From assembly GCA_027623015.1 (NCBI GenBank), contig JAQBVR010000001.1, positions 14,773-78,772 on the forward strand: a stretch of 64,000 nucleotides of DNA, in the 5' to 3' direction. Source of the stretch: a bacterium. Its GTDB lineage: Bacteria; Patescibacteriota; Gracilibacteria; Peribacterales; Peribacteraceae. Positions 6,693 through 45,626 of this stretch are shown here, one piece after another. The position numbers were made by a program, and so were the translations under genes. Below the pieces are notes generated by a model that saw only the letters and a list, made by a program, of their open reading frames with translations, had not been told where the DNA came from and searched no databases. Each line of letters starts with the position of its first letter. Position 1 is the first letter of the stretch.

Positions 6693-8696
6693 CTACCATA
6701 AGAATCCTGGAGCACGAGAGCGAATCTTGTTCCTTTCGAGTTTAGCATTGTGGTCCACTCTGGCTGCAAGCACTTCGTAGAGCGGCGCTTCTCGTCGGTA
6801 GATACGTGCAAAGGTATCTGCCAGATCTATGAAATCCTCTACATTTGGCGATAGGGCTATGAAGTGGGTGTTCTTTGTGATGGCATCCGCAAAGCCACGT
6901 AAGAGTACATCGACTTCTTCTCGACGATCATCTACAGATTTGCGACCACCTCTATCGAGTTCTATAGCGATGATACCACCCATAATTCCAATGTCATTAA
7001 ACCCACCAAGTGATAAAGCATGTTCGTAGTCCTCAATCGCACCTTGTGTTTCACTTTGAAGATTGCGCAGAGCAGCGCGCCTCTTCCATGCCCGAGCATC
7101 TTCTCCGTTCCTTTTGAAGTACTCCGCAATAGCATCATTTGCTCTGCCATACTTACCCATATCTGTAAGGATCTCTGCCCTACTAAGTTGTAAGTCTCTT
7201 GCAAAGAGCTCACCCGAAGCTCTGTTGAACCAGATCATAGCAGCCTCAGAGTCCCCTGCTGCTTGCGCATGACGCCCTACAGATGATAGTACTAGATACC
7301 CTCCTTCAAGGATTGCGAAAGTAAGAAATATAATAGCTATTACCATCTCTGTGTGTCGTGCGATATACGCTGGAGCTCGCTTTGCCTTAGCCCACTCTAT
7401 GCGACTTGCTAGTACTCCAAGGAGTAACCAAAAGAGCATCGCTATAGAAACGAACTGCATGTTATAGTCTATGAGGTTGTGTGCCAGAGATCCCGCTAAG
7501 GCTACGCTAAGGAGTACACCAAAAGAGGCATGGTGTGGCCGTATAAATTCCTTTTTAAACTCTCCCTGTAAACCAGAGAGCATAACAGATCCAAAGAGCA
7601 CGAGAAGTGCAATAGCAACAGGCCAACCACGTTCGGCAGCAGCTTTTAGAAACACATTGTGTGGATGGTCTGATGTTGCTAGGACAGTAGTTTGGAATCG
7701 AGGTTGTACAAATCTGAAACTATACGGACCCCAACCAAACAGCGGCTTCTGGTTTGCTAGTGCTATAGCTTGCACCCAGAATTCTTGGCGCTCAGACACA
7801 GAGGATACACCTTCGTCTGCTGAGAACGTTACCTTTTCATTTACGGATATCACGTCATGTACGCGTTGCCTGAGAGCATTGGCAGCGCTGAAGTATGTCA
7901 GTGCAACAAGGAAGATGCCAGCTGTAACTGCAAGAACCTTTTTCCATGGAAAAGACTTTTTGAAGATGAAACCGTATAACGCTCCAAGTAGTACAAGCTG
8001 GCCACACAGTGCGATAGTTGCTCCGCGTGAGTAACTCAAGAAGAACGAGCCAAGCACGATGCCAACAGCGACACACCTTACCGCTGTATCTATGACTGTT
8101 TGCCTGTCCAGTTTAACAAAGCTCCACCCGCGAAATGCCCAGTAATAGACAAAAGGCCATGTCAGAAGTACAAAGTTGCTCCATGCATTTGGCCAGTAGT
8201 CAGTATGAAACCTCGCATCAAAGAATGTACCAACAAAGCGGTTTACTGGTTGCAATGTGTAGACAGCAAATCCGATACCACATGCAGTAAGTGTTACTAT
8301 CGCAATAGTACGAATGAGCTGAAGAAGAGTCTTATCGTAGAGTCTTTTATTCTGCGATGCCGTAAGTCGAACGACCCAAAGAAAAAGTAGTCCACAGGCT
8401 CCTGTTCGTAAGAGTTCGTCGAACCCATAATTTTGCGTACTTGAGAATGCAAAACTTATGAAGGTCCAACATATGAGAAAAATAACTGGTGCCCACAGCG
8501 CAAGATGAACACTGTCTTTTGCGTCTGTCCTCTTGAGAGTTTTATGAAGAAAGATAGTAAGAGCAAAAACAGCGCCAGCAAATATCCATGTTGACTCAAG
8601 ACTCTTGCCTCCTTTCCAAAGAACAGCAAAAGCAATCAGGGCAAAGATCCCATGGATGATATGATCTGTGGTGAGCGGTTTTCGAAGAAACTGCAT
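6693..8696 (-). CDS. O-antigen ligase-like (Wzy_C family) polytopic membrane protein with C-terminal TPR-like region
   Basis: More than 10 predicted TM helices. The loop SDHPHNVFLKAAAERGWP matches the conserved H-x-H-N...G signature of O-antigen ligase/polymerase domains. The C-terminal soluble part has TPR-like repeats (AIAEYFKRNGEDARAWKRRAALRNL, AIEDYEHALSLG). Confidence 0.7.
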   Translation of the reverse strand: MQFLRKPLTTDHIIHGIFALIAFAVLWKGGKSLESTWIFAGAVFALTIFLHKTLKRTDAKDSVHLALWAPVIFLICWTFISFAFSSTQNYGFDELLRTGACGLLFLWVVRLTASQNKRLYDKTLLQLIRTIAIVTLTACGIGFAVYTLQPVNRFVGTFFDARFHTDYWPNAWSNFVLLTWPFVYYWAFRGWSFVKLDRQTVIDTAVRCVAVGIVLGSFFLSYSRGATIALCGQLVLLGALYGFIFKKSFPWKKVLAVTAGIFLVALTYFSAANALRQRVHDVISVNEKVTFSADEGVSSVSERQEFWVQAIALANQKPLFGWGPYSFRFVQPRFQTTVLATSDHPHNVFLKAAAERGWPVAIALLVLFGSVMLSGLQGEFKKEFIRPHHASFGVLLSVALAGSLAHNLIDYNMQFVSIAMLFWLLLGVLASRIEWAKAKRAPAYIARHTEMVIAIIFLTFAILEGGYLVLSSVGRHAQAAGDSEAAMIWFNRASGELFARDLQLSRAEILTDMGKYGRANDAIAEYFKRNGEDARAWKRRAALRNLQSETQGAIEDYEHALSLGGFNDIGIMGGIIAIELDRGGRKSVDDRREEVDVLLRGFADAITKNTHFIALSPNVEDFIDLADTFARIYRREAPLYEVLAARVDHNAKLERNKIRSRAPGFLW

Positions 8697-8785
8697 GCTG
8701 CTATTTTGTCATATATGATCGGTAAAAGCACGTACATTGATCCTGTCAGTAGGTTGATCTTATGATAACCTGTAGGTACTAGCAG

Positions 8786-8990
8786 TCCGTCTACGTTCTG
8801 AGGAACTTCGGACGGGTGAATGACTCAATAATTGATTATTCTGGTAAGATGTTTGTACAGTGCCGACCCTCCTACGCTGAAGCTTCGAAGGGCAGGCGTG
8901 GCGGCCCGCCTTCGTCCGCTGCGGCGGACTTCGGACGGGTGAATGACTCAATAATTGATTATTCTGGTAAGATGTTTGTACAGTGCCGAC
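8786..8990 (+). repeat. Reiterated leader modules upstream of tRNA-Leu(CAG): an identical 63-nt block at 8805..8867 and 8928..8990, plus three related GC-rich hairpins (8786..8816, 8867..8892, 8905..8939)
   Basis: Direct comparison of the sequence. Both 63-nt blocks read ACTTCGGACGGGTGAATGACTCAATAATTGATTATTCTGGTAAGATGTTTGTACAGTGCCGAC. The hairpins share the CCC[G/T]CC-T(A/T)CG...CTTCG-GA[C/A]GGG architecture. Confidence 0.85.
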
Positions 8991-9070
8991 GTGGCGGAAT
9001 GGTAGACGCGCACGCTTCAGAAGCGTGTAGGAGTATTCCTGTGAGAGTTCAACTCTCTCCGTCGGCACCA
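8985..9070 (+). tRNA. tRNA-Leu (anticodon CAG), class II, CCA encoded
   Basis: Acceptor GCCGACG/CGTCGGC. D-arm GTGGCGGAATGGTAGACGC. Anticodon stem-loop CACGC-TTCAGAA-GCGTG. Long variable arm. T-arm GAGAG-TTCAACT-CTCTC. Terminal ACCA. Confidence 0.92.
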
Positions 9071-9139
9071 ATTATTAATTCAGCTCTATTCTAAGCCATA
9101 AATAGGCTATTGAATTGTTGCTGAATTTCAAGAAGTAGG

Positions 9140-9145
9140 CATAAT
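9140..9145 (+). promoter_or_regulatory. -10 box CATAAT, 7 nt upstream of ATG 9153 (leaderless-type promoter)
   Basis: The sequence reads GGCATAAT TATATCT ATG. There is no Shine-Dalgarno sequence. Confidence 0.45.
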
Positions 9146-9152
9146 TATATCT

Positions 9153-12100
9153 ATGGTCTTACAGGGAGTTGATTTCAATGGCATGGGAGAATTAGAAAGA
9201 GCTGAAATCTCTGAATTGTGGCATTATGGAGACGAGGTAACTAGAAGAAACATCTTTGATCGACTATATGGAGAAGCTGAGTCTGGGCTTGTTGAGGCTA
9301 GAGCAAATGTAAATGGAGGTACTACTAGTGAATTTGATGCTGAGATGCTGCAAATAAGTCAGAATGCACTTGATGGGAATCGAAGAGTGATGGGAAATCT
9401 TCTTGAAAATGCTCCAGGACTTACCAAAAAGAAGGCTGCTGAATGGACAAGGTACATGAGTGATAGACAAGAAGGATTTCGTAGAAACTTTGATCAAGCT
9501 ATAGAAGTGACAAACAGAGTTGCAGATCGTCTCGAAAGTCTAGGGACTCCTTTTGATTTTACTGATATGGAGCAGTTTACTATATTTCAATCAAGCATAG
9601 GTGAAGCTAGAGAAGCAAATGACAGTGAATTGGCTGTAATAGAGAAACTGAGAAATAACCACCCAAGAGCTGCTGAACGGCGAGAGTTTCTGGTGCAGGA
9701 CAACAAATATCTGAGACAAGCGTCAAAAGACTATACTCAAGCTAAAAAACAGTTCCCACTTAAAGAAGCATCTATACAAACGAATCAAGCGATGCGGAAA
9801 TTTAGAGACCATAAATCCTTGGACGATTGCAAAACATTTTATGAGGTTCGAAGTTTTCGTGAAACTCTTAAAAGTGCATGGAATACGAATGCACAGGAAT
9901 CTGAGATCATCGATGAGCTAAAATTTGAGCACCCACAGAAGGAAAACAGACTAGATACGCTACAAGCAAACTATGAGGTTCTACAGCCTTTAGGAAAGCC
10001 CACAGAAGAAAGATTTAGCATGCTGAAGCAAACAACTCCTGAGATAGAGCTCGTTGACGATATGGAAGATCGTTTTGCTGCTGTCATCGAAGGGCGTCGT
10101 CCTGAAATGGAAAAAGCTCAAAAGATTGCATCTGACATAAAAGCTGCAATGAAAGAAGATCCTGACCCCATAAAGCTCTACCTGACAGAGATGGGCGCAG
10201 TACCACTACTCAAACGTCCAGATGAAGATGAGCTTTCGTATTTATTCGAACAGTCAGAACTTGCACGAAGGCAGCATGCTCTCACCTCTCCATTTCTTGT
10301 TGAGCGAGCCATCTCTATGATAAACAGAGTACGAGATGGAACACTCCCCGCTGAGCGAACCATGGAGATAAATGCTACAAAGGGTCAGCTACTGCGATAT
10401 GGAGCATCTGAAGAAGAAGTAGCTGAACTTAAGAAAAGAGAATATCCTGGAGTAAATCCTGTGGCTGCAATGGAACGCTACGAAGGCCATATGAAACTAA
10501 TACAGAAACTACAAGAAAGATGTAAATCCAACTATACGACTATGCGATCTGCACAAAGTGCTGAAAAGGGAGTGAAAGCTAAGGAAGCACGAGATAGTGA
10601 CCTTCTGAAAATCTCTATGTTACTCGATGAGATGTCGATACGACGCGATAAGTTTGAGCCGCACATTAAGTCTCTCAAAGAGATACTTTCTAGAATGGAA
10701 ACTCTTCAATCTGCAATTGAGATTACAGACAAAAGTTATGGCCCAGGAGGAAGAATGCAGTACCCGAAAGATCAGATCACTCTTACCGAATCTATAGTCT
10801 CACCACCTGGAGTGCGACGTGCTATAAAGGGAAGAGTAGTGATGCAATCTGCTGGTAAAGATGTTGAGCGAACAATTGTCACAGACTACTCTGGAGAATT
10901 TGGAAGACTACAAAAACCAGCTGCTCATGCAGTATTCAAAAGTGGATCGAATTCGAAAGGTGCTGCTGCAGACCCTGCTCGCATAGAGGCAAAAAGAGTC
11001 ATGGAGCAAGAACTTCAAACTCTTGTTGAAATGACACAGCAAACACCTGAAGAGCTCCGAGTATGGATGGAAAAGTATGACAAGATTGTTAAATTGAATA
11101 GTCGAGTTTCTGATGAGCGTGTTACTGCTAACTTACGTCTAGTCATTCACAACGCAAAGAAGTACAGACATAGAGGACTTGATTTTCTTGAACTGATCCA
11201 AGAAGGAAGCGCAGGACTTTTGCGTGCAGAGACAAAGTTTGAGCCAAGAAAGGGGTTTAAGTATTCAACATACGCAACATGGTGGATCAAACAAGCATGT
11301 GGTCGCGCTGTTGCAGACCATGCTCGACTCATCCGTATCCCCGTTCACAACATAGCTGTATTTAAACACATCAAAACGATAAATGACGACTACCTCAACA
11401 CACTAGGACGGGACGCAACTACGGAAGAGATTCATGCCAAGCTTCCAGAGCTCATGGCAAAGCCACCAGACTTCACTACTCTGCAAGAGCTACGCACTAT
11501 TTGGAAGAATCCTTCCTCTCTCGATGCTCCTGTTGGAGAAGATGGTGGATCTTCTACTGGAGACTTTGTAGCTGATAATAAAAGTAGTGCATCTATGAGT
11601 GCAGCGGAAAACAGATTGCTTGGTGACCAATTCGATACGCTACTACGCAATGTCGATAAACGAAGTGGAGACATCGTTAAGCTGCGCTTTGGGCTCGCTA
11701 GTAAAGTTGTCATTTCTGTGCAACGAAAGGTTTTTATCGAGTTTTTGACTTCGAAAGCAGGCACTGTAGGAGAGCGTGAAGGTGACTCCCCTGCTGGCTT
11801 TATCACCATTGATGGCATAGCGATTATTGAAAGTGATTTTGTACAAGCGGAAGGAGAATATGACGTTTCCGACATTGAAGATGCTTACCTTGAAACAGAT
11901 GAGACTATCGAGAACTCTACTCTTGAAGCAGTCGTTACTACTGCTGCCGACGAGCCAGAAGGTACTACTGACCAGCAAGATGAAGAGCCTGCTGAAGAAC
12001 TAGATTCGACTGGGAATACAATTGACGAGAATACGATCACATTTACAATATCTGGATACCCTTGCACTCTTGAACAAACTGGAAAGCTCCACGGCGTAAC

Positions 12101-13837: not shown

Positions 13838-14167
13838 ATGTCTACTATCCCTGAACTAGCGGTTACTGTCTCCCCCATAGGAGATCACGTACTTGTCATC
13901 CCAATAGAAAAGGAACAAATTACTGCTTCTGGAATCGTCATACCAGATACTGCCAATAGTGAAAAGACTGGCCAAGGTGTTGTCGTTGCCCTTGGAAGTG
14001 GTGGCATAGGAAAAGACCAAGGCAATCCTCATGACTACCTTAAGCTTGGCGACACCATCATTTATGGTAAGTACGCAGGAAATGACCTCAAGCTTAAAAC
14101 AAAGAATGGTAAAGAGGTCGAAGTCAATGTCATGCGATTGGACTCTGTCCTTGGTGTCGTTTCGTAA
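13838..14167 (+). CDS. groES: Co-chaperonin GroES
   Basis: Length of 109 aa. Motifs [33 protein letters not shown]. It lies immediately upstream of groEL. Confidence 0.95.
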
Positions 14168-30499: not shown

Positions 30500-31786
30500 A
30501 TGCTGTATAATGCAGTCAGAGAAAGTGCATTTATTCAGTCTATATGGTACAATAGTATGATTTCTGACTCACAACACAACCAACGGGGAGGATACGATGA
30601 TGAAGGTAATATCATATTGCCAGAGACAGGCACGCCTGGATCTGCGGGTACATTTCGTAAGCCTCTATGGACAAATATCGATGAGCAGAATGATCTGAAT
30701 GAAGCTACATTTCAAAAAGTTGAGGGTAGTAGAATCTCTCGTAATAAGACAGTTGAGGATCCTCCAACCAAGATATGGAAAGATGCTCGAAAAAAGATTG
30801 GTGGTGTAACTCAAGACTTTTTTAAAGAAGGTGCAAAGCAATACAAGTGGAGTATAAAAGCAGCGCTCAAAGGAATGAGGTCATCTCTAGACTCTGGCCA
30901 ATATGGCATTGATCACATATGGGGATTTCTTGCACAACCAGTATGGGTCCTCAATAGAAAGAGACATAAGGCTAAGCAATATAGTCGGTTTTCCCTTTTC
31001 CTTTTAGACACAGTTCGATTTGGTGGAACCTTTGCTATTCTTTTTGTTACCTTGTTTGTATCATTAAATTACCAAAGCTTCTGGAAGATAAGTCAGTCGT
31101 ATATAAATCCCATCCGGAGAGCACAAAGCTCGATCATCACCAATGCCAATACAGACAATATTCTTGCTCAGAAACTTCTTCGTAGCCCCTCTCTCGCAAC
31201 TGCTGGTGGATCAAAAGGTGATCTACTTAGCTACCTTCCAGAGGTTGGACCACCTGAAAATAGAATCATCATTCCTCGTTTGGACCTTAATATTCCTTTG
31301 GTTACACCTTCTTATAAGGCTCTACTTTCTGAGGATTGGGACCAACTAGAAGAAGACATTCAAGATGCTCTACAGATGGGCGTAGTGCATTACCCCGGCA
31401 CTGCTAGACCAGGGCAAGCAGGAAACTTCTTCGTCACCGGTCATAGCTCATATTACCCTTGGGCAGATGGTAAATATAAAACAGTATTTGCTCGCCTTCA
31501 AGACCTAGATGTTGGAGATGAGTATTGGGTGTACTACGGCGGTGACAAATACCGATATATTGTACGAACGAAAAAAGAAGTAAAGCCAACAAATGTAGAT
31601 GTATTAGATCAGCCAGTTTCTAAACGCATGGCCACTCTTATGACCTGCAGTCCAGTAGGAACGACTTTACGACGACTGATTTTAAGTTCAGAAGAGGTAG
31701 ATCCAGATACAGGAATCGCAATGCATGTTGGGGAGCAACACAAAAGAACTGAACCAAAGATTAATGTTGGGGCACTGCCAATCTAG
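30500..31786 (+). CDS. Sortase family transpeptidase with long N-terminal region and TM anchor
   Basis: Catalytic His context FFVTGHSSY. Catalytic Cys motif ATLMTCSP (TLxTC). TM helix FGGTFAILFVTLFVSL. The start is uncertain (Met1 at 30500 or Met20 at 30557). Confidence 0.8.
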   Translation: MLYNAVRESAFIQSIWYNSMISDSQHNQRGGYDDEGNIILPETGTPGSAGTFRKPLWTNIDEQNDLNEATFQKVEGSRISRNKTVEDPPTKIWKDARKKIGGVTQDFFKEGAKQYKWSIKAALKGMRSSLDSGQYGIDHIWGFLAQPVWVLNRKRHKAKQYSRFSLFLLDTVRFGGTFAILFVTLFVSLNYQSFWKISQSYINPIRRAQSSIITNANTDNILAQKLLRSPSLATAGGSKGDLLSYLPEVGPPENRIIIPRLDLNIPLVTPSYKALLSEDWDQLEEDIQDALQMGVVHYPGTARPGQAGNFFVTGHSSYYPWADGKYKTVFARLQDLDVGDEYWVYYGGDKYRYIVRTKKEVKPTNVDVLDQPVSKRMATLMTCSPVGTTLRRLILSSEEVDPDTGIAMHVGEQHKRTEPKINVGALPI

Positions 31787-31805
31787 AGCTATACTCTGTT
31801 TAATT

Positions 31806-31977
31806 GCCGCTGTGGTGGCCCGCCTACGTCTGCGGACTTCGGACGGGTGAATAGCTCTGAAATAGCTCTTTGTGATAACATCTCTGTAATTGCCGCTGTG
31901 GTGGCCCGCCTACGTCTGCGGACTTCGGACGGGTGAATAGCTCTGAAATAGCTCTTTGTGATAACATCTCTGTAATT
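31806..31977 (+). repeat. Two perfect 86-nt tandem units upstream of tRNA-Leu(TAA). Each unit is the first 13 nt of the tRNA, a GC-rich hairpin and an AT-rich spacer.
   Basis: Units 31806..31891 and 31892..31977 both read GCCGCTGTGGTGG CCCGCCTACGTCTGCGGACTTCGGACGGG TGAATAGCTCTGAAATAGCTCTTTGTGATAACATCTCTGTAATT. The intact tRNA starts at 31978 with the same 13 nt. Confidence 0.9.
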
Positions 31978-32065
31978 GCCGCTGTGGTGGAATGGTAGAC
32001 ACGGGGGACTTAAAATCCCCTGACCTTAAACGGTCGTACTGGTTCGAATCCAGTCAGCGGCACCA
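31978..32065 (+). tRNA. tRNA-Leu (anticodon TAA), class II, CCA encoded
   Basis: Acceptor GCCGCTG/CAGCGGC. D-arm GTGGTGGAATGGTAGACAC. Anticodon stem-loop GGGGA-CTTAAAA-TCCCC. Long variable arm. T-arm ACTGG-TTCGAAT-CCAGT. Terminal ACCA. Confidence 0.92.
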
Positions 32066-32184
32066 ATACTTAAAATCATCATATATTTTGACCTGTATCT
32101 ACTGTTTTGAGTATATATTAACTTATTGCGATTGTATTACTTTAACTGTAATACTTTAACGATATGGCTATTTGAGAGCAAGTA

Positions 32185-32193
32185 TGCTATAAT
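32185..32193 (+). promoter_or_regulatory. Extended -10 box TGCTATAAT, 13 nt upstream of ATG 32207
   Basis: The sequence reads AGTA TGCTATAAT ATAACTAACACAA ATG. Confidence 0.45.
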
Positions 32194-32206
32194 ATAACTA
32201 ACACAA

Positions 32207-33208
32207 ATGAAGTCCCTAACACTTACACTGCCCTTGCTTCCAAGGCACACCTATCGTGTGAATTCTGGTATAGCAGCTGGAAGCTTGGCTATGGTTATAA
32301 ATGTAATATCTTCTTCAACATTCCCTGTTTTTGGAAAGCAACTTGCAGGTTCATTCTCCCCTCTTTCTCTACTCTTCGTCGGTGAGATCATGGGTGGGAT
32401 CTTTGTACTACTTTCTTTTGGGTTTCTCCCTCTTCTTAAAATCGTCTGGTCTCTCAAGCATACTCAAAAGATATACCTAGCCATTGGAGGTGTAATCACT
32501 GGAATTGTAGCGCCATATATGTGGTACATGGGACTCTTACAAACAACTGCTATCAATGCAGGACTCTTTAGTCGATCGGAAGCAATATTTTTAATTCTTT
32601 TTTCTGCATTGTTTCTGAAAGAGTCGATCGGGAAGAAGCAGTATCTCTCTCTTATTGTGATCTTATTTGGTGTGATGTTTGTAGCACTGAAAGGATTCAC
32701 TGTTGGATTTACTATGCAAATGGGTGACGTTCTCATCATAGTATCATCTTGTCTTTATGCAATTGGAGGCATCATCGTGAAAAAGCTTTTAAACGATGTT
32801 CATCCTGAAGCCATCATATTTGCAAGAGCGTTCTCTGCCACAGTACTTTTTATACTTTGTACTATGTTCTATACGCATACACTTGGATCCGAGCTTCGCA
32901 ATATCGATCCATCTTTGATCACCGTTCTTCTATGCTACGGTTTCCTCACGAGGTTCCTTGGCATCTACAGCTTTCATGAAGCTATAGATAAGCTAAAAGT
33001 CTCCACCGTGTCTATGATGGGAACGCTATCTATCGTAGGAAGTATTTTCTTTGCAGCAGCGTATCTCGGTGAGTACATTCACTGGTATCAGACTGTTGGA
33101 GGCGCAGTCATAGTGATTGGTGTAATGATGATGCAATATTTCGGTATTCATGCAACGTCAGATGTTCATAAGCACCACATTCGTTCGCACCACAACAACC
33201 ACTTTTAG
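32207..33208 (+). CDS. EamA/DMT-family transporter
   Basis: Ten hydrophobic helices in two homologous halves, typical of the drug/metabolite transporter superfamily. His-rich C-terminal tail. Confidence 0.75.
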   Translation: MKSLTLTLPLLPRHTYRVNSGIAAGSLAMVINVISSSTFPVFGKQLAGSFSPLSLLFVGEIMGGIFVLLSFGFLPLLKIVWSLKHTQKIYLAIGGVITGIVAPYMWYMGLLQTTAINAGLFSRSEAIFLILFSALFLKESIGKKQYLSLIVILFGVMFVALKGFTVGFTMQMGDVLIIVSSCLYAIGGIIVKKLLNDVHPEAIIFARAFSATVLFILCTMFYTHTLGSELRNIDPSLITVLLCYGFLTRFLGIYSFHEAIDKLKVSTVSMMGTLSIVGSIFFAAAYLGEYIHWYQTVGGAVIVIGVMMMQYFGIHATSDVHKHHIRSHHNNHF

Positions 33209-45422: not shown

Positions 45423-45507
45423 TGGTGGGCCGGGAGGGATTCGAACCCCCGAAGGCGGAGCCGCCTGGTTTACAGCCAGGTGCGTTTGTCCACTTCGCTA
45501 CCGACCC
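45423..45507 (-). tRNA. tRNA-Tyr (anticodon GTA), class II, CCA encoded
   Basis: The minus strand reads GGGTCGG TA GCGAAGTGGACAAACGC A CCTGG-CTGTAAA-CCAGG, then a long variable arm, then GGGGG-TTCGAAT-CCCTC CCGGCCC ACCA. Confidence 0.9.
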
Positions 45508-45567: not shown

Positions 45568-45626
45568 GTCCGCCGAAGCTTGCTTGCTGGCCATAGCATG
45601 TAGTGCGACGGCTGGCGTAGGCGGAC
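45568..45626 (-). other. GC-clamped hairpin in the tRNA-Tyr leader, related to the tRNA-Leu leader hairpins
   Basis: The minus strand reads GTCCGCC-TACG-(37 nt)-CTTCG-GCGGAC. This is a perfect 7-bp outer stem with the same TACG / CTTCG junctions as the Leu-leader hairpins. Confidence 0.5.

What the first reader, a model, noticed from the sequence alone, without database searches (positions are those of the whole stretch)
31806..32065. Second tRNA-Leu locus with the same design: two perfect 86-nt units, each starting with the first 13 nt of the tRNA fused to the conserved hairpin
About 23 kb from the first locus, tRNA-Leu(TAA) is preceded by two identical 86-nt units (31806..31891 and 31892..31977). 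Each unit contains GCCGCTGTGGTGG, which is the acceptor 5' strand, positions 8-9 and the D-stem 5' strand, identical to the start of the real tRNA at 31978. Next comes the hairpin CCCGCC-TACG-TC(TGCG)GA-CTTCG-GACGGG and then TGAAT. An AT-rich spacer follows, ending in TGTGATAAC...TGTAATT. The hairpin and the following GTGAAT are shared with the tRNA-Leu(CAG) locus. The spacers and the tRNA-derived segments are locus-specific, each matching its own tRNA. Each locus has therefore independently duplicated its own tRNA 5' end next to a shared hairpin. Chance duplication is unlikely to give this. It suggests either a recombination or insertion mechanism acting at the D-arm boundary, or selection for tandem leader modules.
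Basis: seen in the sequence. Interest (0 to 1): 0.75.

Follow-up and report, generated by a model that had tools for sequence, protein, structure and literature searches.

The report
Hairpin modules splitting duplicated tRNA-Leu starts
Upstream of two leucine tRNA genes in an uncultured Peribacteria-like bacterium lie tandem non-coding units, each made of the tRNA's first 13 bases, a conserved hairpin and a spacer, and they look like gene-less members of an apparently undescribed class of insertion modules that lodge in the D-arm of tRNA-Leu genes and restore the gene by duplicating its 5' end.

Summary
Perfect 86-nt tandem units (13 nt of the tRNA's own 5' end, hairpin H, TGAAT, 39-nt spacer) precede tRNA-Leu(TAA), and tRNA-Leu(CAG) has the same design.

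The unit number is not reliable. A second assembly of the same sample has 4.2 units, not 2.2, and it has a 100-N gap inside the CAG-locus repeat.

The same junction (nt 13|H) occurs at tRNA-Leu(GAG) and (CAA) genes of other Peribacteria. Orthologous tRNA-Leu loci are variously empty, carry H, carry a decayed H, or carry a second module type. That type joins at nt 24 to a perfect palindrome, with or without a 78-96-aa GIY-YIG nuclease gene. The palindrome/GIY-YIG design also occurs in a Bacteroidota genome.

Best reading (about 0.5): the window's units are gene-less, recombinationally amplified D-arm insertion/duplication modules. RNase P would release the tRNA from the last copy only.

No nuclease has been linked to H. 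H also shows structure-preserving variation, so a host leader or promoter function stays open. No Rfam family or paper was found.

The parts
31790..31795 (+). -10-like hexamer TATACT, 10 nt upstream of the first tRNA-fragment copy. It lies just after the sortase stop codon (31784-31786).
   Evidence: Read from the sequence. The consensus scan found no full -35/-10 pair here, so this is an inferred promoter only.
31806..31818 (+). F copy 1: GCCGCTGTGGTGG, identical to nt 1-13 of tRNA-Leu(TAA) (acceptor 5' strand, nt 8-9, D-stem 5' strand).
31819..31847 (+). Hairpin H copy 1. P1 is CCCGCCU/GGACGGG with one C.A mismatch. The internal loop is AC/UUC. P2 is GUC-UGCG-GAC.
   Evidence: Fold. Pair counts over 5 homologues give 92% paired against 28-53% when slid, with 3 pairs changed on both sides. 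The covariance model scores 52.6 bits.
31848..31891 (+). TGAAT plus 39-nt AT-rich spacer S copy 1. It contains the extended -10-like TGTGATAAC (31870-31878), 13 nt before the next F.
   Evidence: promoter function is inferred
31892..31904 (+). F copy 2
31905..31933 (+). Hairpin H copy 2
31934..31977 (+). TGAAT plus spacer S copy 2 (TGTGATAAC at 31956-31964)
31978..32065 (+). Complete tRNA-Leu(TAA) with encoded CCA. It is the only F copy followed by a tRNA body.
8737..8766 (+). Promoter-like site TTGATC-18-TATGAT, about 19 nt upstream of the first hairpin of the CAG locus
8785..8816 (+). Hairpin H1 of the tRNA-Leu(CAG) locus. No tRNA fragment precedes it.
   Evidence: 55.3 bits
8817..8867 (+). 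TGAAT, then 40-nt spacer (extended -10-like TGGTAAGAT at 8842-8850), then GCCGAC (tRNA nt 1-6)
8868..8892 (+). Small H-like hairpin h2 (CCTCC-TACG-CTGAAG-CTTCG-AAGGG), lodged after nt 6 of the fragment. CAG-GC-GTGGCGG (8893-8904) follows, a gapped second copy of spacer end plus fragment.
   Evidence: It was not recovered by the H covariance model, so kinship with H is loose.
8905..8939 (+). Hairpin H3 (P2 = GUCCGC-UGCG-GCGGAC), joined to ...GTGGCGG (tRNA nt 7-13)
   Evidence: 54.6 bits
8940..8984 (+). TGAAT plus 40-nt spacer (TGGTAAGAT at 8965-8973, 11 nt before the tRNA). The alternative assembly has a 100-N gap inside this repeat.
8985..9070 (+). Complete tRNA-Leu(CAG)
45568..45626 (-). H-like hairpin in the tRNA-Tyr leader (GTCCGCC-TACG...CTTC-GGCGGAC). 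It lies 60 nt upstream of tRNA-Tyr (45423-45507, minus strand) and downstream of a promoter-like site (45684-45656). No tRNA fragment precedes it.
   Evidence: (z = -2.5). It was not recovered by the H model.

Best explanation
**What it is.** Each 86-nt unit is a gene-less module sitting inside a tRNA-Leu gene whose 5' end has been duplicated. Its order is tRNA nt 1-13, conserved hairpin H, TGAAT, and a 39-nt spacer, followed by the next copy. Only the last copy continues into a whole tRNA.

**Origin (inferred).** A site-specific insertion or gene-conversion event after nt 13, the D-stem/D-loop boundary of tRNA-Leu genes, came with a second copy of the leader and 5' segment, so the tRNA stayed intact. 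This is the same architecture as the cassettes that join tRNA-Leu nt 24 to a perfect palindrome and often carry a small GIY-YIG (UPF0213/SLX1-like) nuclease gene. Those cassettes occupy the orthologous loci in other Peribacteria.

**Amplification (inferred).** The perfect repeats then expand and contract by unequal recombination or replication slippage. That would explain the unstable copy number.

**Expression (inferred).** Transcription starts at the -10-like boxes 10-13 nt upstream of the F copies and reads through the array. RNase P cuts only at the last fragment copy, the one with a tRNA body. The fragment-hairpin-spacer leader is discarded.

**Host role.** No host function is required. 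The conservation of H would then serve the module's own propagation or harmlessness.
For: **Shown**
1. The junction is exact and recurrent. There are 13 tRNA nt before H at Leu(TAA) in the window, Leu(GAG) in L004 and L049, and Leu(CAA) in L006. In the window's CAG locus H3 follows tRNA nt 7-13 (GTGGCGG) of a gapped copy of the fragment. Each fragment matches its own tRNA.
2. Occupancy varies at the purB-linked tRNA-Leu(GAG) locus, which keeps a TTGC(C/T)C-N16-17-TACACT promoter. The states seen are: empty (L078); H unit (L004); the same nt-13 junction with no stable hairpin (L077 and L088); a palindrome unit without a gene at nt 24 (L087); and the palindrome plus a 96-aa GIY-YIG gene (Ca. Peribacter riflensis, L082).
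3. The window's CAG locus lies between a Wzy_C gene and groES/groEL. It is syntenic with L085 and L086, which share those flanking genes (GroEL about 78% identical), where the palindrome/GIY-YIG cassette sits.
4. L086 has a gene-bearing unit followed by a gene-less 93-nt unit (fragment, palindrome, 50-nt spacer). This is a direct analogue of the 86-nt unit.
5. Tandem repetition also occurs in the palindrome type (L084).
6. There are footprints of movement between paralogues. GCGCTAG (GAG type) follows the palindrome in a CAG locus.
7. The nt-24 design recurs in a Bacteroidota genome. It also shows in the translated N-terminal extensions of 20 of 120 and 22 of 59 database homologues.
8. Copy number differs between two assemblies of one sample.
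9. H matches no Rfam family and has no terminator-like U-tract.
Against: - No nuclease or any other gene has been found with an H-type unit. tblastn with 120 GIY-YIG homologues finds nothing in the window, L004 or L006. No GIY-YIG homologue has an H-like upstream translation. The link between H-type and palindrome-type modules therefore rests on architecture and shared loci, not on sequence.
- H copies within one genome differ in the length of P2 through structure-preserving changes, while the base of the hairpin and TGAAT are invariant across genomes. That pattern fits long-term selection on a structure, which a pure relic would not show.
- H1 and the tRNA-Tyr hairpin have no tRNA fragment in front of them and sit just downstream of promoter-like sites. 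An H-like hairpin may therefore be a native leader element.
- An 'empty' site can also arise by deletion between the direct repeats, so the polarity (gain or loss) is not shown.
- How a locus-specific second copy of the 5' segment is produced remains unexplained.
- Only about six H-type loci are known. Both large DNA scans yielded only three H-type loci outside the window (L004, L006 and L049, the last the same type as L004).
Confidence: 0.5

Rival explanations
1. **Host-selected leader/promoter modules.** H is a native structured element of class II tRNA leaders (Leu, Tyr), serving processing, stability or protein binding. Each spacer carries its own promoter. Tandem copies raise or tune expression of single-copy tRNA-Leu genes. 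On this reading the tRNA fragment is only the part of the gene caught inside the duplicated segment.
For: - Extended -10-like boxes lie 9-13 nt upstream of the next fragment or tRNA: TGGTAAGAT, TGTGATAAC, and TGGTACTAT in L006.
- H1 and the tRNA-Tyr hairpin lie just downstream of promoter-like sites and have no fragment in front.
- The base of H and TGAAT are invariant, while P2 varies with compensating changes.
- G.U pairs favour the tRNA-sense strand as the folded strand (reasoning from the sequence).
- The insert shared by L077 and L088 is about 86% identical, while the leader next to it has diverged.
Against: - Arbitrary duplication breakpoints would not give the same nt 13|H junction at four isoacceptors.
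- The orthologous GAG locus works without any unit (L078), or with a quite different module at nt 24 (L087, L082).
- The hairpin is lost in L077 and L088.
- L004's spacer has no convincing -10, and its conserved promoter lies upstream of the fragment.
- The consensus promoter scan finds nothing inside the TAA-locus units.
Confidence: 0.22
2. **Guide-like or decoy RNA.** The transcript 'tRNA 5' fragment plus hairpin' is functional. The fragment would act as a guide matching the tRNA-Leu gene and the hairpin as a protein handle, directing a nuclease such as the small GIY-YIG protein encoded in the palindrome-type cassettes. Alternatively, the fragment would act as a decoy for something that recognises the tRNA-Leu 5' end.
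For: - The layout (target-identical 13-24 nt followed at once by a conserved hairpin, transcribed from the tRNA promoter) resembles a guide plus scaffold.
- The small GIY-YIG proteins have no DNA-binding domain. They are only 78-96 aa, and their nearest solved relatives are UPF0213 proteins and SLX1.
- The fragment copy stays identical to the tRNA while neighbouring leader sequence diverges.
- Self-targeting of the regenerated site would predict tandem arrays, and arrays are seen.
Against: - L085 keeps the palindrome and an intact GIY-YIG gene but has lost the upstream fragment.
- In L087 fragment and palindrome decay together.
- H-type units have no associated protein.
- 13 nt is short for a guide.
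- No RNA-guided GIY-YIG enzyme is known (own knowledge).
- The regenerated tRNA gene would remain a target in every occupied genome.
Confidence: 0.06
3. **Assembly artefact or plain local duplication.** The tandem units are created or inflated by short-read assembly of a repeat, or are a one-off slippage product with no wider meaning.
For: Two assemblies of the same sample disagree (2.2 against 4.2 units). The other locus has a scaffold gap inside the repeat.
Against: - Single, unambiguous fragment-H-spacer-tRNA units occur in independent genomes and metagenomes (L004, L006, L049).
- Both assemblies contain at least two units.
- The junction position and the H sequence are conserved across isoacceptors.
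Confidence: 0.05

Closest known systems
Free-standing GIY-YIG homing-endonuclease cassettes aimed at tRNA genes (phage T4 SegB; PMC2330249)
   Same: - A GIY-YIG nuclease gene sits among or next to tRNA genes.
- Per the paper's abstract, the recognition site includes a conserved tRNA-gene motif.
- Related genomes show presence/absence polymorphism.
- The palindrome-type cassettes at the orthologous tRNA-Leu loci carry a GIY-YIG gene.
   Different: - The window's units carry no gene at all.
- SegB is a larger enzyme that recognises the T-arm motif. The proteins here are only 78-96 aa, of the UPF0213/SLX1 kind.
- The junctions here are in the D-arm (nt 13 or nt 24), with a hairpin and a duplicated 5' segment. 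Neither is a feature of Seg homing.
- No cleavage activity has been tested.
Integrative elements (tyrosine-integrase islands and prophages) that insert into tRNA genes and restore them (own knowledge; Williams 2002, Nucleic Acids Res)
   Same: - The target is a tRNA gene.
- The insert is flanked by direct repeats of a tRNA segment.
- The tRNA stays functional because the lost part is supplied again.
- Tandem accretion at one site is known.
   Different: - Those elements are kilobases long and encode an integrase.
- They duplicate the 3' part of the tRNA (anticodon loop, T-loop or 3' end).
- Here the insert is 65-75 nt (or about 300-460 nt with the GIY-YIG gene), has no integrase, and the 5' part is duplicated.
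E. coli tyrT locus: a 178-bp unit repeated 3.14 times, each starting with the last 19 nt of tRNA-Tyr (own knowledge; Egan and Landy 1978)
   Same: Tandem non-tRNA repeats sit next to a tRNA gene. Each repeat carries a terminal piece of that tRNA, and unequal recombination probably generated and resized them.
   Different: - The repeats are on the 3' side and duplicate the 3' end.
- There is no conserved hairpin.
- The design is not shared across isoacceptors or genomes.
Mitochondrial free-standing endonuclease genes that bring a replacement gene terminus and leave the displaced fragment behind (Allomyces atp6; own knowledge, Paquin et al. 1994)
   Same: A mobile endonuclease cassette is inserted within a gene. 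The gene is kept intact by a duplicated terminal segment, and a truncated copy is left beside it.
   Different: - The target there is a protein-coding gene, and the 3' terminus is replaced.
- It occurs in eukaryotic organelles.
- No hairpin or palindrome marks the junction.
TnpB/IscB guide RNAs encoded at transposon ends (bioRxiv 10.1101/2023.11.20.567912, abstract seen)
   Same: A scaffold encoded at the element's end is fused to a guide that matches the flanking target, and it is used to cut vacant sites. Layout only: target-identical segment next to a conserved hairpin.
   Different: - No TnpB or IscB is present.
- The guide-like segment lies 5' of the hairpin and is only 13-24 nt.
- There is no evidence that the RNA binds a protein.
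- The occupied locus still contains the intact target.

Membership tests
GIY-YIG homing-endonuclease cassette | Encodes a GIY-YIG nuclease within the inserted segment | tested here: not met
   tblastn with 120 GIY-YIG homologues finds nothing in the window. The units are 86 nt with no ORF. The feature is met only by the palindrome-type cassettes at orthologous loci (L082, L084-L086, L090).
GIY-YIG homing-endonuclease cassette | Presence/absence polymorphism at a conserved target site in related genomes | tested here: met
   The purB-linked tRNA-Leu(GAG) locus is empty in L078, H-type in L004, decayed in L077 and L088, and palindrome-type in L087 and L082.
GIY-YIG homing-endonuclease cassette | The nuclease cleaves the unoccupied target | not testable with these tools
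   This needs biochemistry.
Integrase-mediated tRNA-gene integrative element | Integrase gene and kilobase-sized element between the repeats, with a direct repeat of the tRNA 3' part | tested here: not met
   The insert is 73 nt, there is no ORF, and the repeat covers tRNA nt 1-13 plus 5 upstream nt.
Miniature inverted-repeat transposable element / insertion sequence | Terminal inverted repeats and a short fixed-length target duplication | tested here: not met
   The only inverted repeat is the internal hairpin H at one end. The direct repeats are 14-18 nt, or up to 50 nt and more, and vary in length.
CRISPR array | Conserved repeats separated by unique spacers | tested here: not met
   Whole units are identical, and there are no variable spacers.
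Intrinsic terminator / attenuator | G+C-rich hairpin followed by a U-tract | tested here: not met
   No terminator-like site lies in 31600-32250 or 8600-9200. H is followed by UGAAUAG.
Any curated RNA family (Rfam 15) | Covariance-model match at or near the gathering score | tested here: not met
   Only the tRNAs match. The best other hits are 16-25 bits against thresholds of 58-68.
Split or permuted tRNA gene | No intact gene; halves joined through complementary flanking sequence | tested here: not met
   An intact tRNA follows the units. No 3' half carries a complementary leader.
Structured RNA or DNA hairpin under selection (generic) | Pairs kept through changes on both sides across homologues | tested here: inconclusive
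   Five sequences give 92% paired against 28-53% when slid, and 3 pairs changed on both sides, all in P2. However, 39 of 500 shuffles do as well.

The most novel reading that the evidence does not exclude
The 'tRNA 5' fragment plus hairpin' transcript is a guide-and-handle RNA for a very small nuclease, the 78-96-aa GIY-YIG/SLX1-like protein of the sister cassettes or an unknown partner for H. It would direct cutting of tRNA-Leu genes and so drive homing into them. The tandem arrays in the window would be the footprint of repeated self-targeting of the regenerated site.
Probability: 0.05. Interest if true: 0.95.

Novelty: new variant of a known kind. Interest (0 to 1): 0.66.

Why it matters
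If the best reading holds, tRNA-Leu genes of candidate-phyla-radiation (CPR) bacteria, and at least one Bacteroidota genome, host a previously unreported class of small site-specific modules.

- These modules enter the D-arm and keep the gene alive by duplicating its 5' end. This mirrors the well-known 3'-end strategy of integrases.
- One member encodes a minimal GIY-YIG nuclease beside a perfect palindrome, which makes a tractable system for asking how so small a nuclease finds its target.

On the practical side:

- The modules create unresolvable tandem repeats and scaffold gaps at tRNA genes in metagenome-assembled genomes.
- Gene callers extend ORFs through tRNA sequence at these loci.
- The modules add long structured leaders to pre-tRNAs.

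If the units turn out to be host leader modules instead, they would be a new structured element of class II tRNA leaders.

Tried and rejected
- **Rfam.** A gathering-threshold scan of the window, and E-value scans of both loci and of L084/L086, matched only tRNAs.
- **Collection scans with H patterns.**
  - Genome contigs gave 4 hits, 2 of them real.
  - Metagenome contigs gave 35 hits, of which 1 was real and 2 were uncertain intergenic hairpins in low-GC contigs with no tRNA (L066, L074). The rest were G+C-rich coding sequence.
  - Viral contigs gave 34 hits, all chance.
- **Palindrome scan of viral contigs.** It gave 4 hits with no tRNA nearby, so it was uninformative.
- **RpoD as a handle for relatives.** No close homologue exists beyond the organism itself.
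- **Covariance model of H.** It recovers only the training copies. It does not recover the tRNA-Tyr hairpin, h2 or anything in the other Peribacteria loci.
- **Readings considered and rejected.**
  - Terminator or attenuator: there is no U-tract.
  - CRISPR-like array: the units are identical.
  - Integrase att remnant: wrong end of the tRNA, no integrase, and a constant 73-nt insert.
  - Unit as a tRNA pseudogene: there is no tRNA covariance-model signal. L004 and L006 spacers do hold a 7-nt complement to their own fragment, but the window loci do not.
  - Microhomology slippage between the H 3' arm and tRNA nt 9-16: it would not recreate the 5' arm of H next to the fragment.
- **Literature.** Six searches found no description of this design.
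Full report
**1. The observation**

The window holds three tRNA genes: Leu(CAG) at 8985-9070, Leu(TAA) at 31978-32065 and Tyr(GTA) at 45423-45507 on the minus strand.

- Upstream of Leu(TAA), Tandem Repeats Finder reports 31801-31990 with period 86, 2.2 copies and 100% identity.
- Each unit reads GCCGCTGTGGTGG (tRNA nt 1-13, here called F), then CCCGCCTACGTCTGCGGACTTCGGACGGG (hairpin H), then TGAAT, then a 39-nt AT-rich spacer (S).
- H folds into an outer stem with one C.A mismatch, a small internal loop and an inner stem-loop.
- The 16-mer CTTCGGACGGGTGAAT occurs four times in 64 kb, only at the two Leu loci. Shuffles give 0.23 expected matches.
- The CAG locus reads H1-S-GCCGAC-h2-(CAG)GC-GTGGCGG-H3-S-tRNA.

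**2. The copy number is not reliable**

- The flanking proteins are found on one ENA scaffold, MEHR18-1_SAMN03444961_METAG-scaffold_972. Its flanks are 100% identical to the window.
- That scaffold has 4.2 perfect units at the TAA locus. It also has a 100-N gap inside the repeat of the CAG locus.
- The arrays are therefore real, but 'two units' reflects one assembly. The true number at both loci is unknown and may be variable.

**3. Relatives**

- A pattern scan of one genome per species found H only in two Candidatus Peribacteria genomes. In both it lies upstream of a tRNA-Leu, GAG in L004 and CAA in L006. In both it follows the first 13 nt of that locus's own tRNA, and a 40-nt spacer follows it. 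The other two hits are coding sequence.
- The metagenome scan added one more copy of the L004 type.
- GroEL of the window is about 78% identical to that of a Peribacteria contig, so the organism belongs to or near that class.
- Across the five H copies the outer stem, the internal loop, the first three inner pairs and TGAAT never vary. The inner stem differs in length with compensating changes. Paired cells are 92%, against 28-53% when the 3' partners are slid, and three pairs change on both sides. With five sequences the shuffle control is weak, with 39 of 500 shuffles doing as well.

**4. Orthologous loci differ**

I used adenylosuccinate lyase, the gene next to L004's tRNA-Leu(GAG), as a handle. 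This recovered the same locus from other Peribacteria. All of them keep a TTGC(C/T)C-N16-17-TACACT promoter-like sequence upstream. The states found were:

| Locus | State |
|---|---|
| L078 | no unit |
| L004 | F-H-S |
| L077, L088 | same nt-13 junction, then a 65-nt insert only about 55-60% like H-S and with no stable fold |
| L087 | first 24 nt of the tRNA (one mismatch), a degenerate palindrome CTGCCTGCCAGTAGGTAGG, 8 nt of resumed tRNA sequence, a 58-nt spacer, then the tRNA |
| L082 (Ca. Peribacter riflensis) | 24 tRNA nt, perfect palindrome CTGCCTGCCGGCAGGCAGG, a 96-aa GIY-YIG gene, then a second copy of leader plus tRNA start (direct repeat 50 nt) |

**5. The palindrome/GIY-YIG cassette is a family**

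- Homologues of that protein are 78-96 aa and hit PF01541 only. Their nearest solved relatives are UPF0213 proteins and SLX1.
- All three further Peribacteria contexts fetched lie directly upstream of tRNA-Leu genes and share the palindrome. L084 and L086 also show the nt-24 junction; in L085 the upstream tRNA fragment has decayed and only the palindrome remains.
- L084 is a tandem array.
- L086 has a gene-bearing unit followed by a gene-less 93-nt unit. That unit has the same build as the window's 86-nt unit.
- L085 and L086 are syntenic with the window's CAG locus (Wzy_C gene on one side in L085, groES/groEL on the other in both). At the same tRNA-Leu(CAG) locus the window therefore has H-type units where relatives have the palindrome cassette.
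- A Cyclobacteriaceae (Bacteroidota) genome shows the identical design at tRNA-Leu(CAA).
- Many database homologues have ORF calls that run upstream through the palindrome and the D-arm, giving translations such as AELVDLPAGRQAR and WRNWQTCLPAGR. This holds for 20 of 120 and 22 of 59. Others run through a whole tRNA-Leu.
- The family has 6544 cluster representatives at E <= 1e-3.
- After the palindrome, the sequence sometimes matches a different Leu isoacceptor than the host locus. This suggests transfer between paralogous genes.

**6. What the window's units most likely are**

- The exact junctions (13 or 24), the hairpin at the junction and the few nt of resumed tRNA sequence all point one way. 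(The resumed sequence is AAT(G) after H and GCGC... after the palindrome.) So do the regenerated gene, the variable occupancy of orthologous loci, the gene-less units beside gene-bearing ones, and the tandem repetition.
- Together they point to one kind of event: a site-specific insertion or conversion in the D-arm of tRNA-Leu genes that leaves a truncated 5' copy and an intact gene.
- I take the 86-nt units to be gene-less members of that kind, multiplied by unequal recombination or slippage between perfect repeats.
- How the tRNA is made is inferred. There are -10-like boxes 10-13 nt upstream of each F: TATACT at 31790-31795, and TGTGATAAC at 31870-31878 and 31956-31964. In the CAG locus TGGTAAGAT sits at 8842-8850 and 8965-8973. 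Read-through transcription and a single RNase P cut at the last F would yield the tRNA.
- The consensus promoter scan did not call these sites. It did call sites upstream of H1 and of the tRNA-Tyr hairpin.

**7. What does not fit**

- No gene has been found with any H-type unit. H has no sequence likeness to the palindrome.
- H looks selected: its base is invariant across genomes while its tip varies compensatorily within one genome.
- H1 and an H-like hairpin in the tRNA-Tyr leader have no fragment before them. The Tyr hairpin shares CCGCCTACG and CTTCGG with H, but the H model does not recover it.
- These points keep a host leader or promoter role alive (rival, about 0.22).
- An empty locus may also be a deletion between the direct repeats.
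- The source of the locus-specific second copy of leader plus F is unexplained. The direct repeats range from 14 nt to more than 50 nt with a fixed right end. A simple staggered cut does not predict this.
- One further observation bears on origin. The 5' half of H, CCGCC(T)ACGTC, is the reverse complement of nt 4-13 of the window's tRNA-Leu(CAG) with one extra T. The 3' half plus TGAAT(G) resembles nt 4-17. H may thus have begun as a quasi-palindromic template-switch copy of that region and then spread to the other Leu genes. This is an inference from one alignment.

**8. Comparison with known systems, and novelty**

- The nearest known things are the following:
  - T4 SegB, a GIY-YIG enzyme that recognises a conserved tRNA-gene motif (PMC2330249).
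  - Integrase-borne elements that restore tRNA 3' ends (own knowledge).
  - The tyrT 178-bp repeats of E. coli (own knowledge).
  - Mitochondrial endonuclease cassettes that carry a replacement gene end (own knowledge).
- The window's units fail the defining tests of each: no nuclease or integrase gene, the 5' end duplicated instead of the 3' end, and a hairpin at the junction.
- Six literature searches and Rfam gave no description of either module type.
- I rate it a new variant of a known kind, namely mobile or recombinational modules that target tRNA genes.
- The units are real and reproducible. They are mechanistically unresolved, and the copy number in the window is uncertain.

Noticed in passing
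L082 13550-14030 (-); L084 1-520; L085 2440-2841; L086 2440-2944; L090 1440-1826: A cross-phylum cassette at tRNA-Leu genes. Its order is the locus's own tRNA nt 1-24, a perfect palindrome CTG(C/T)CTGCC(G/A)(G/A)CAGGCAGG, 7-11 nt of resumed tRNA sequence, a 78-96-aa GIY-YIG (UPF0213/SLX1-like) gene, 6-60 nt, and then the full tRNA-Leu. It occurs in Peribacteria and in a Cyclobacteriaceae genome. The protein family has 6544 representatives at E <= 1e-3. No paper was found.
   Followed up: partly
L086 2763-2857; L082 about 13975-13990: After the palindrome, a unit in a Leu(CAG) locus carries GCGCTAG, the Leu(GAG) sequence. The cassette in a Leu(GAG) locus carries GCGCA(T)G, which is CAG/CAA-like. 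This looks like a footprint of transfer between paralogous tRNA-Leu genes.
   Followed up: no
L004 1440-1546 (-); L006 4361-4403 (-); L086 2945-2980; L077 7215-7398 (-); L078 11476-11650: The 3' ends of tRNA-Leu genes also carry modules. One is a shared TTCGACTCG-hairpin-CTCGCTCATGG element directly after CCA. The other is a set of 90-165-nt inserts followed by a second copy of the last 13-18 nt of the tRNA. Neither is present in the window.
   Followed up: partly
L076 1185-1284 (= window about 8983): The ENA scaffold of the same sample has a 100-N gap inside the CAG-locus repeat. The window sequence joins the two sides without a gap, so at least one more fragment-hairpin unit is probably missing from the window.
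   Followed up: yes
window 45568-45626 (-): The tRNA-Tyr leader holds a 59-nt hairpin whose base (GTCCGCC-TACG ... CTTC-GGCGGAC) matches the base of H. It has a long, different tip and no tRNA fragment before it. It lies between a promoter-like site (45684-45656) and the tRNA. All three tRNAs in the window are class II.
   Followed up: partly
window 8868-8904: A 25-nt H-like mini-hairpin (h2) sits after nt 6 of a tRNA fragment, followed by a gapped copy of spacer end plus fragment (CAG-GC-GTGGCGG). It looks like a second, nested event at a different position.
   Followed up: no
L004 1650-1665 (-); L006 4505-4520 (-): The spacers of L004 and L006 contain a 7-nt stretch complementary (G.U allowed) to nt 1-7 of their own fragment, UCUGGGU and CUAUGGU. 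In L006 it resembles the tRNA's own 3' end with C-to-T changes and also reads as an extended -10 (TGGTACTAT). The window's spacers lack a comparable complement.
   Followed up: partly
window 31760-31805: The last codons and stop of the sortase-like gene (30500-31786) lie within about 20 nt of the first unit. The 11 nt before the first fragment repeat the spacer end with 2 mismatches. An older, decayed spacer copy may reach into the gene's 3' end.
   Followed up: no
L074 3662-3690 (-); L066 428-456: Two low-G+C groundwater or metagenome contigs have an H-like hairpin (CCCGCC-TTCG-...-CTTCGGACGGGTG) in intergenic DNA with no tRNA nearby. In L074 it lies just downstream of a TATAAT box and upstream of a protein gene. 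Whether these are related to H or are chance hits is unknown.
   Followed up: partly
protein hits P0165-P0276, P0282-P0430: Gene callers often extend these small GIY-YIG ORFs through the palindrome, the tRNA fragment or a whole tRNA-Leu. This produces spurious N- or C-terminal peptides such as AELVDLPAGRQAR, WRNWQTCLPAGR and EWRNWQTRTTQNRV in public protein sets.
   Followed up: yes
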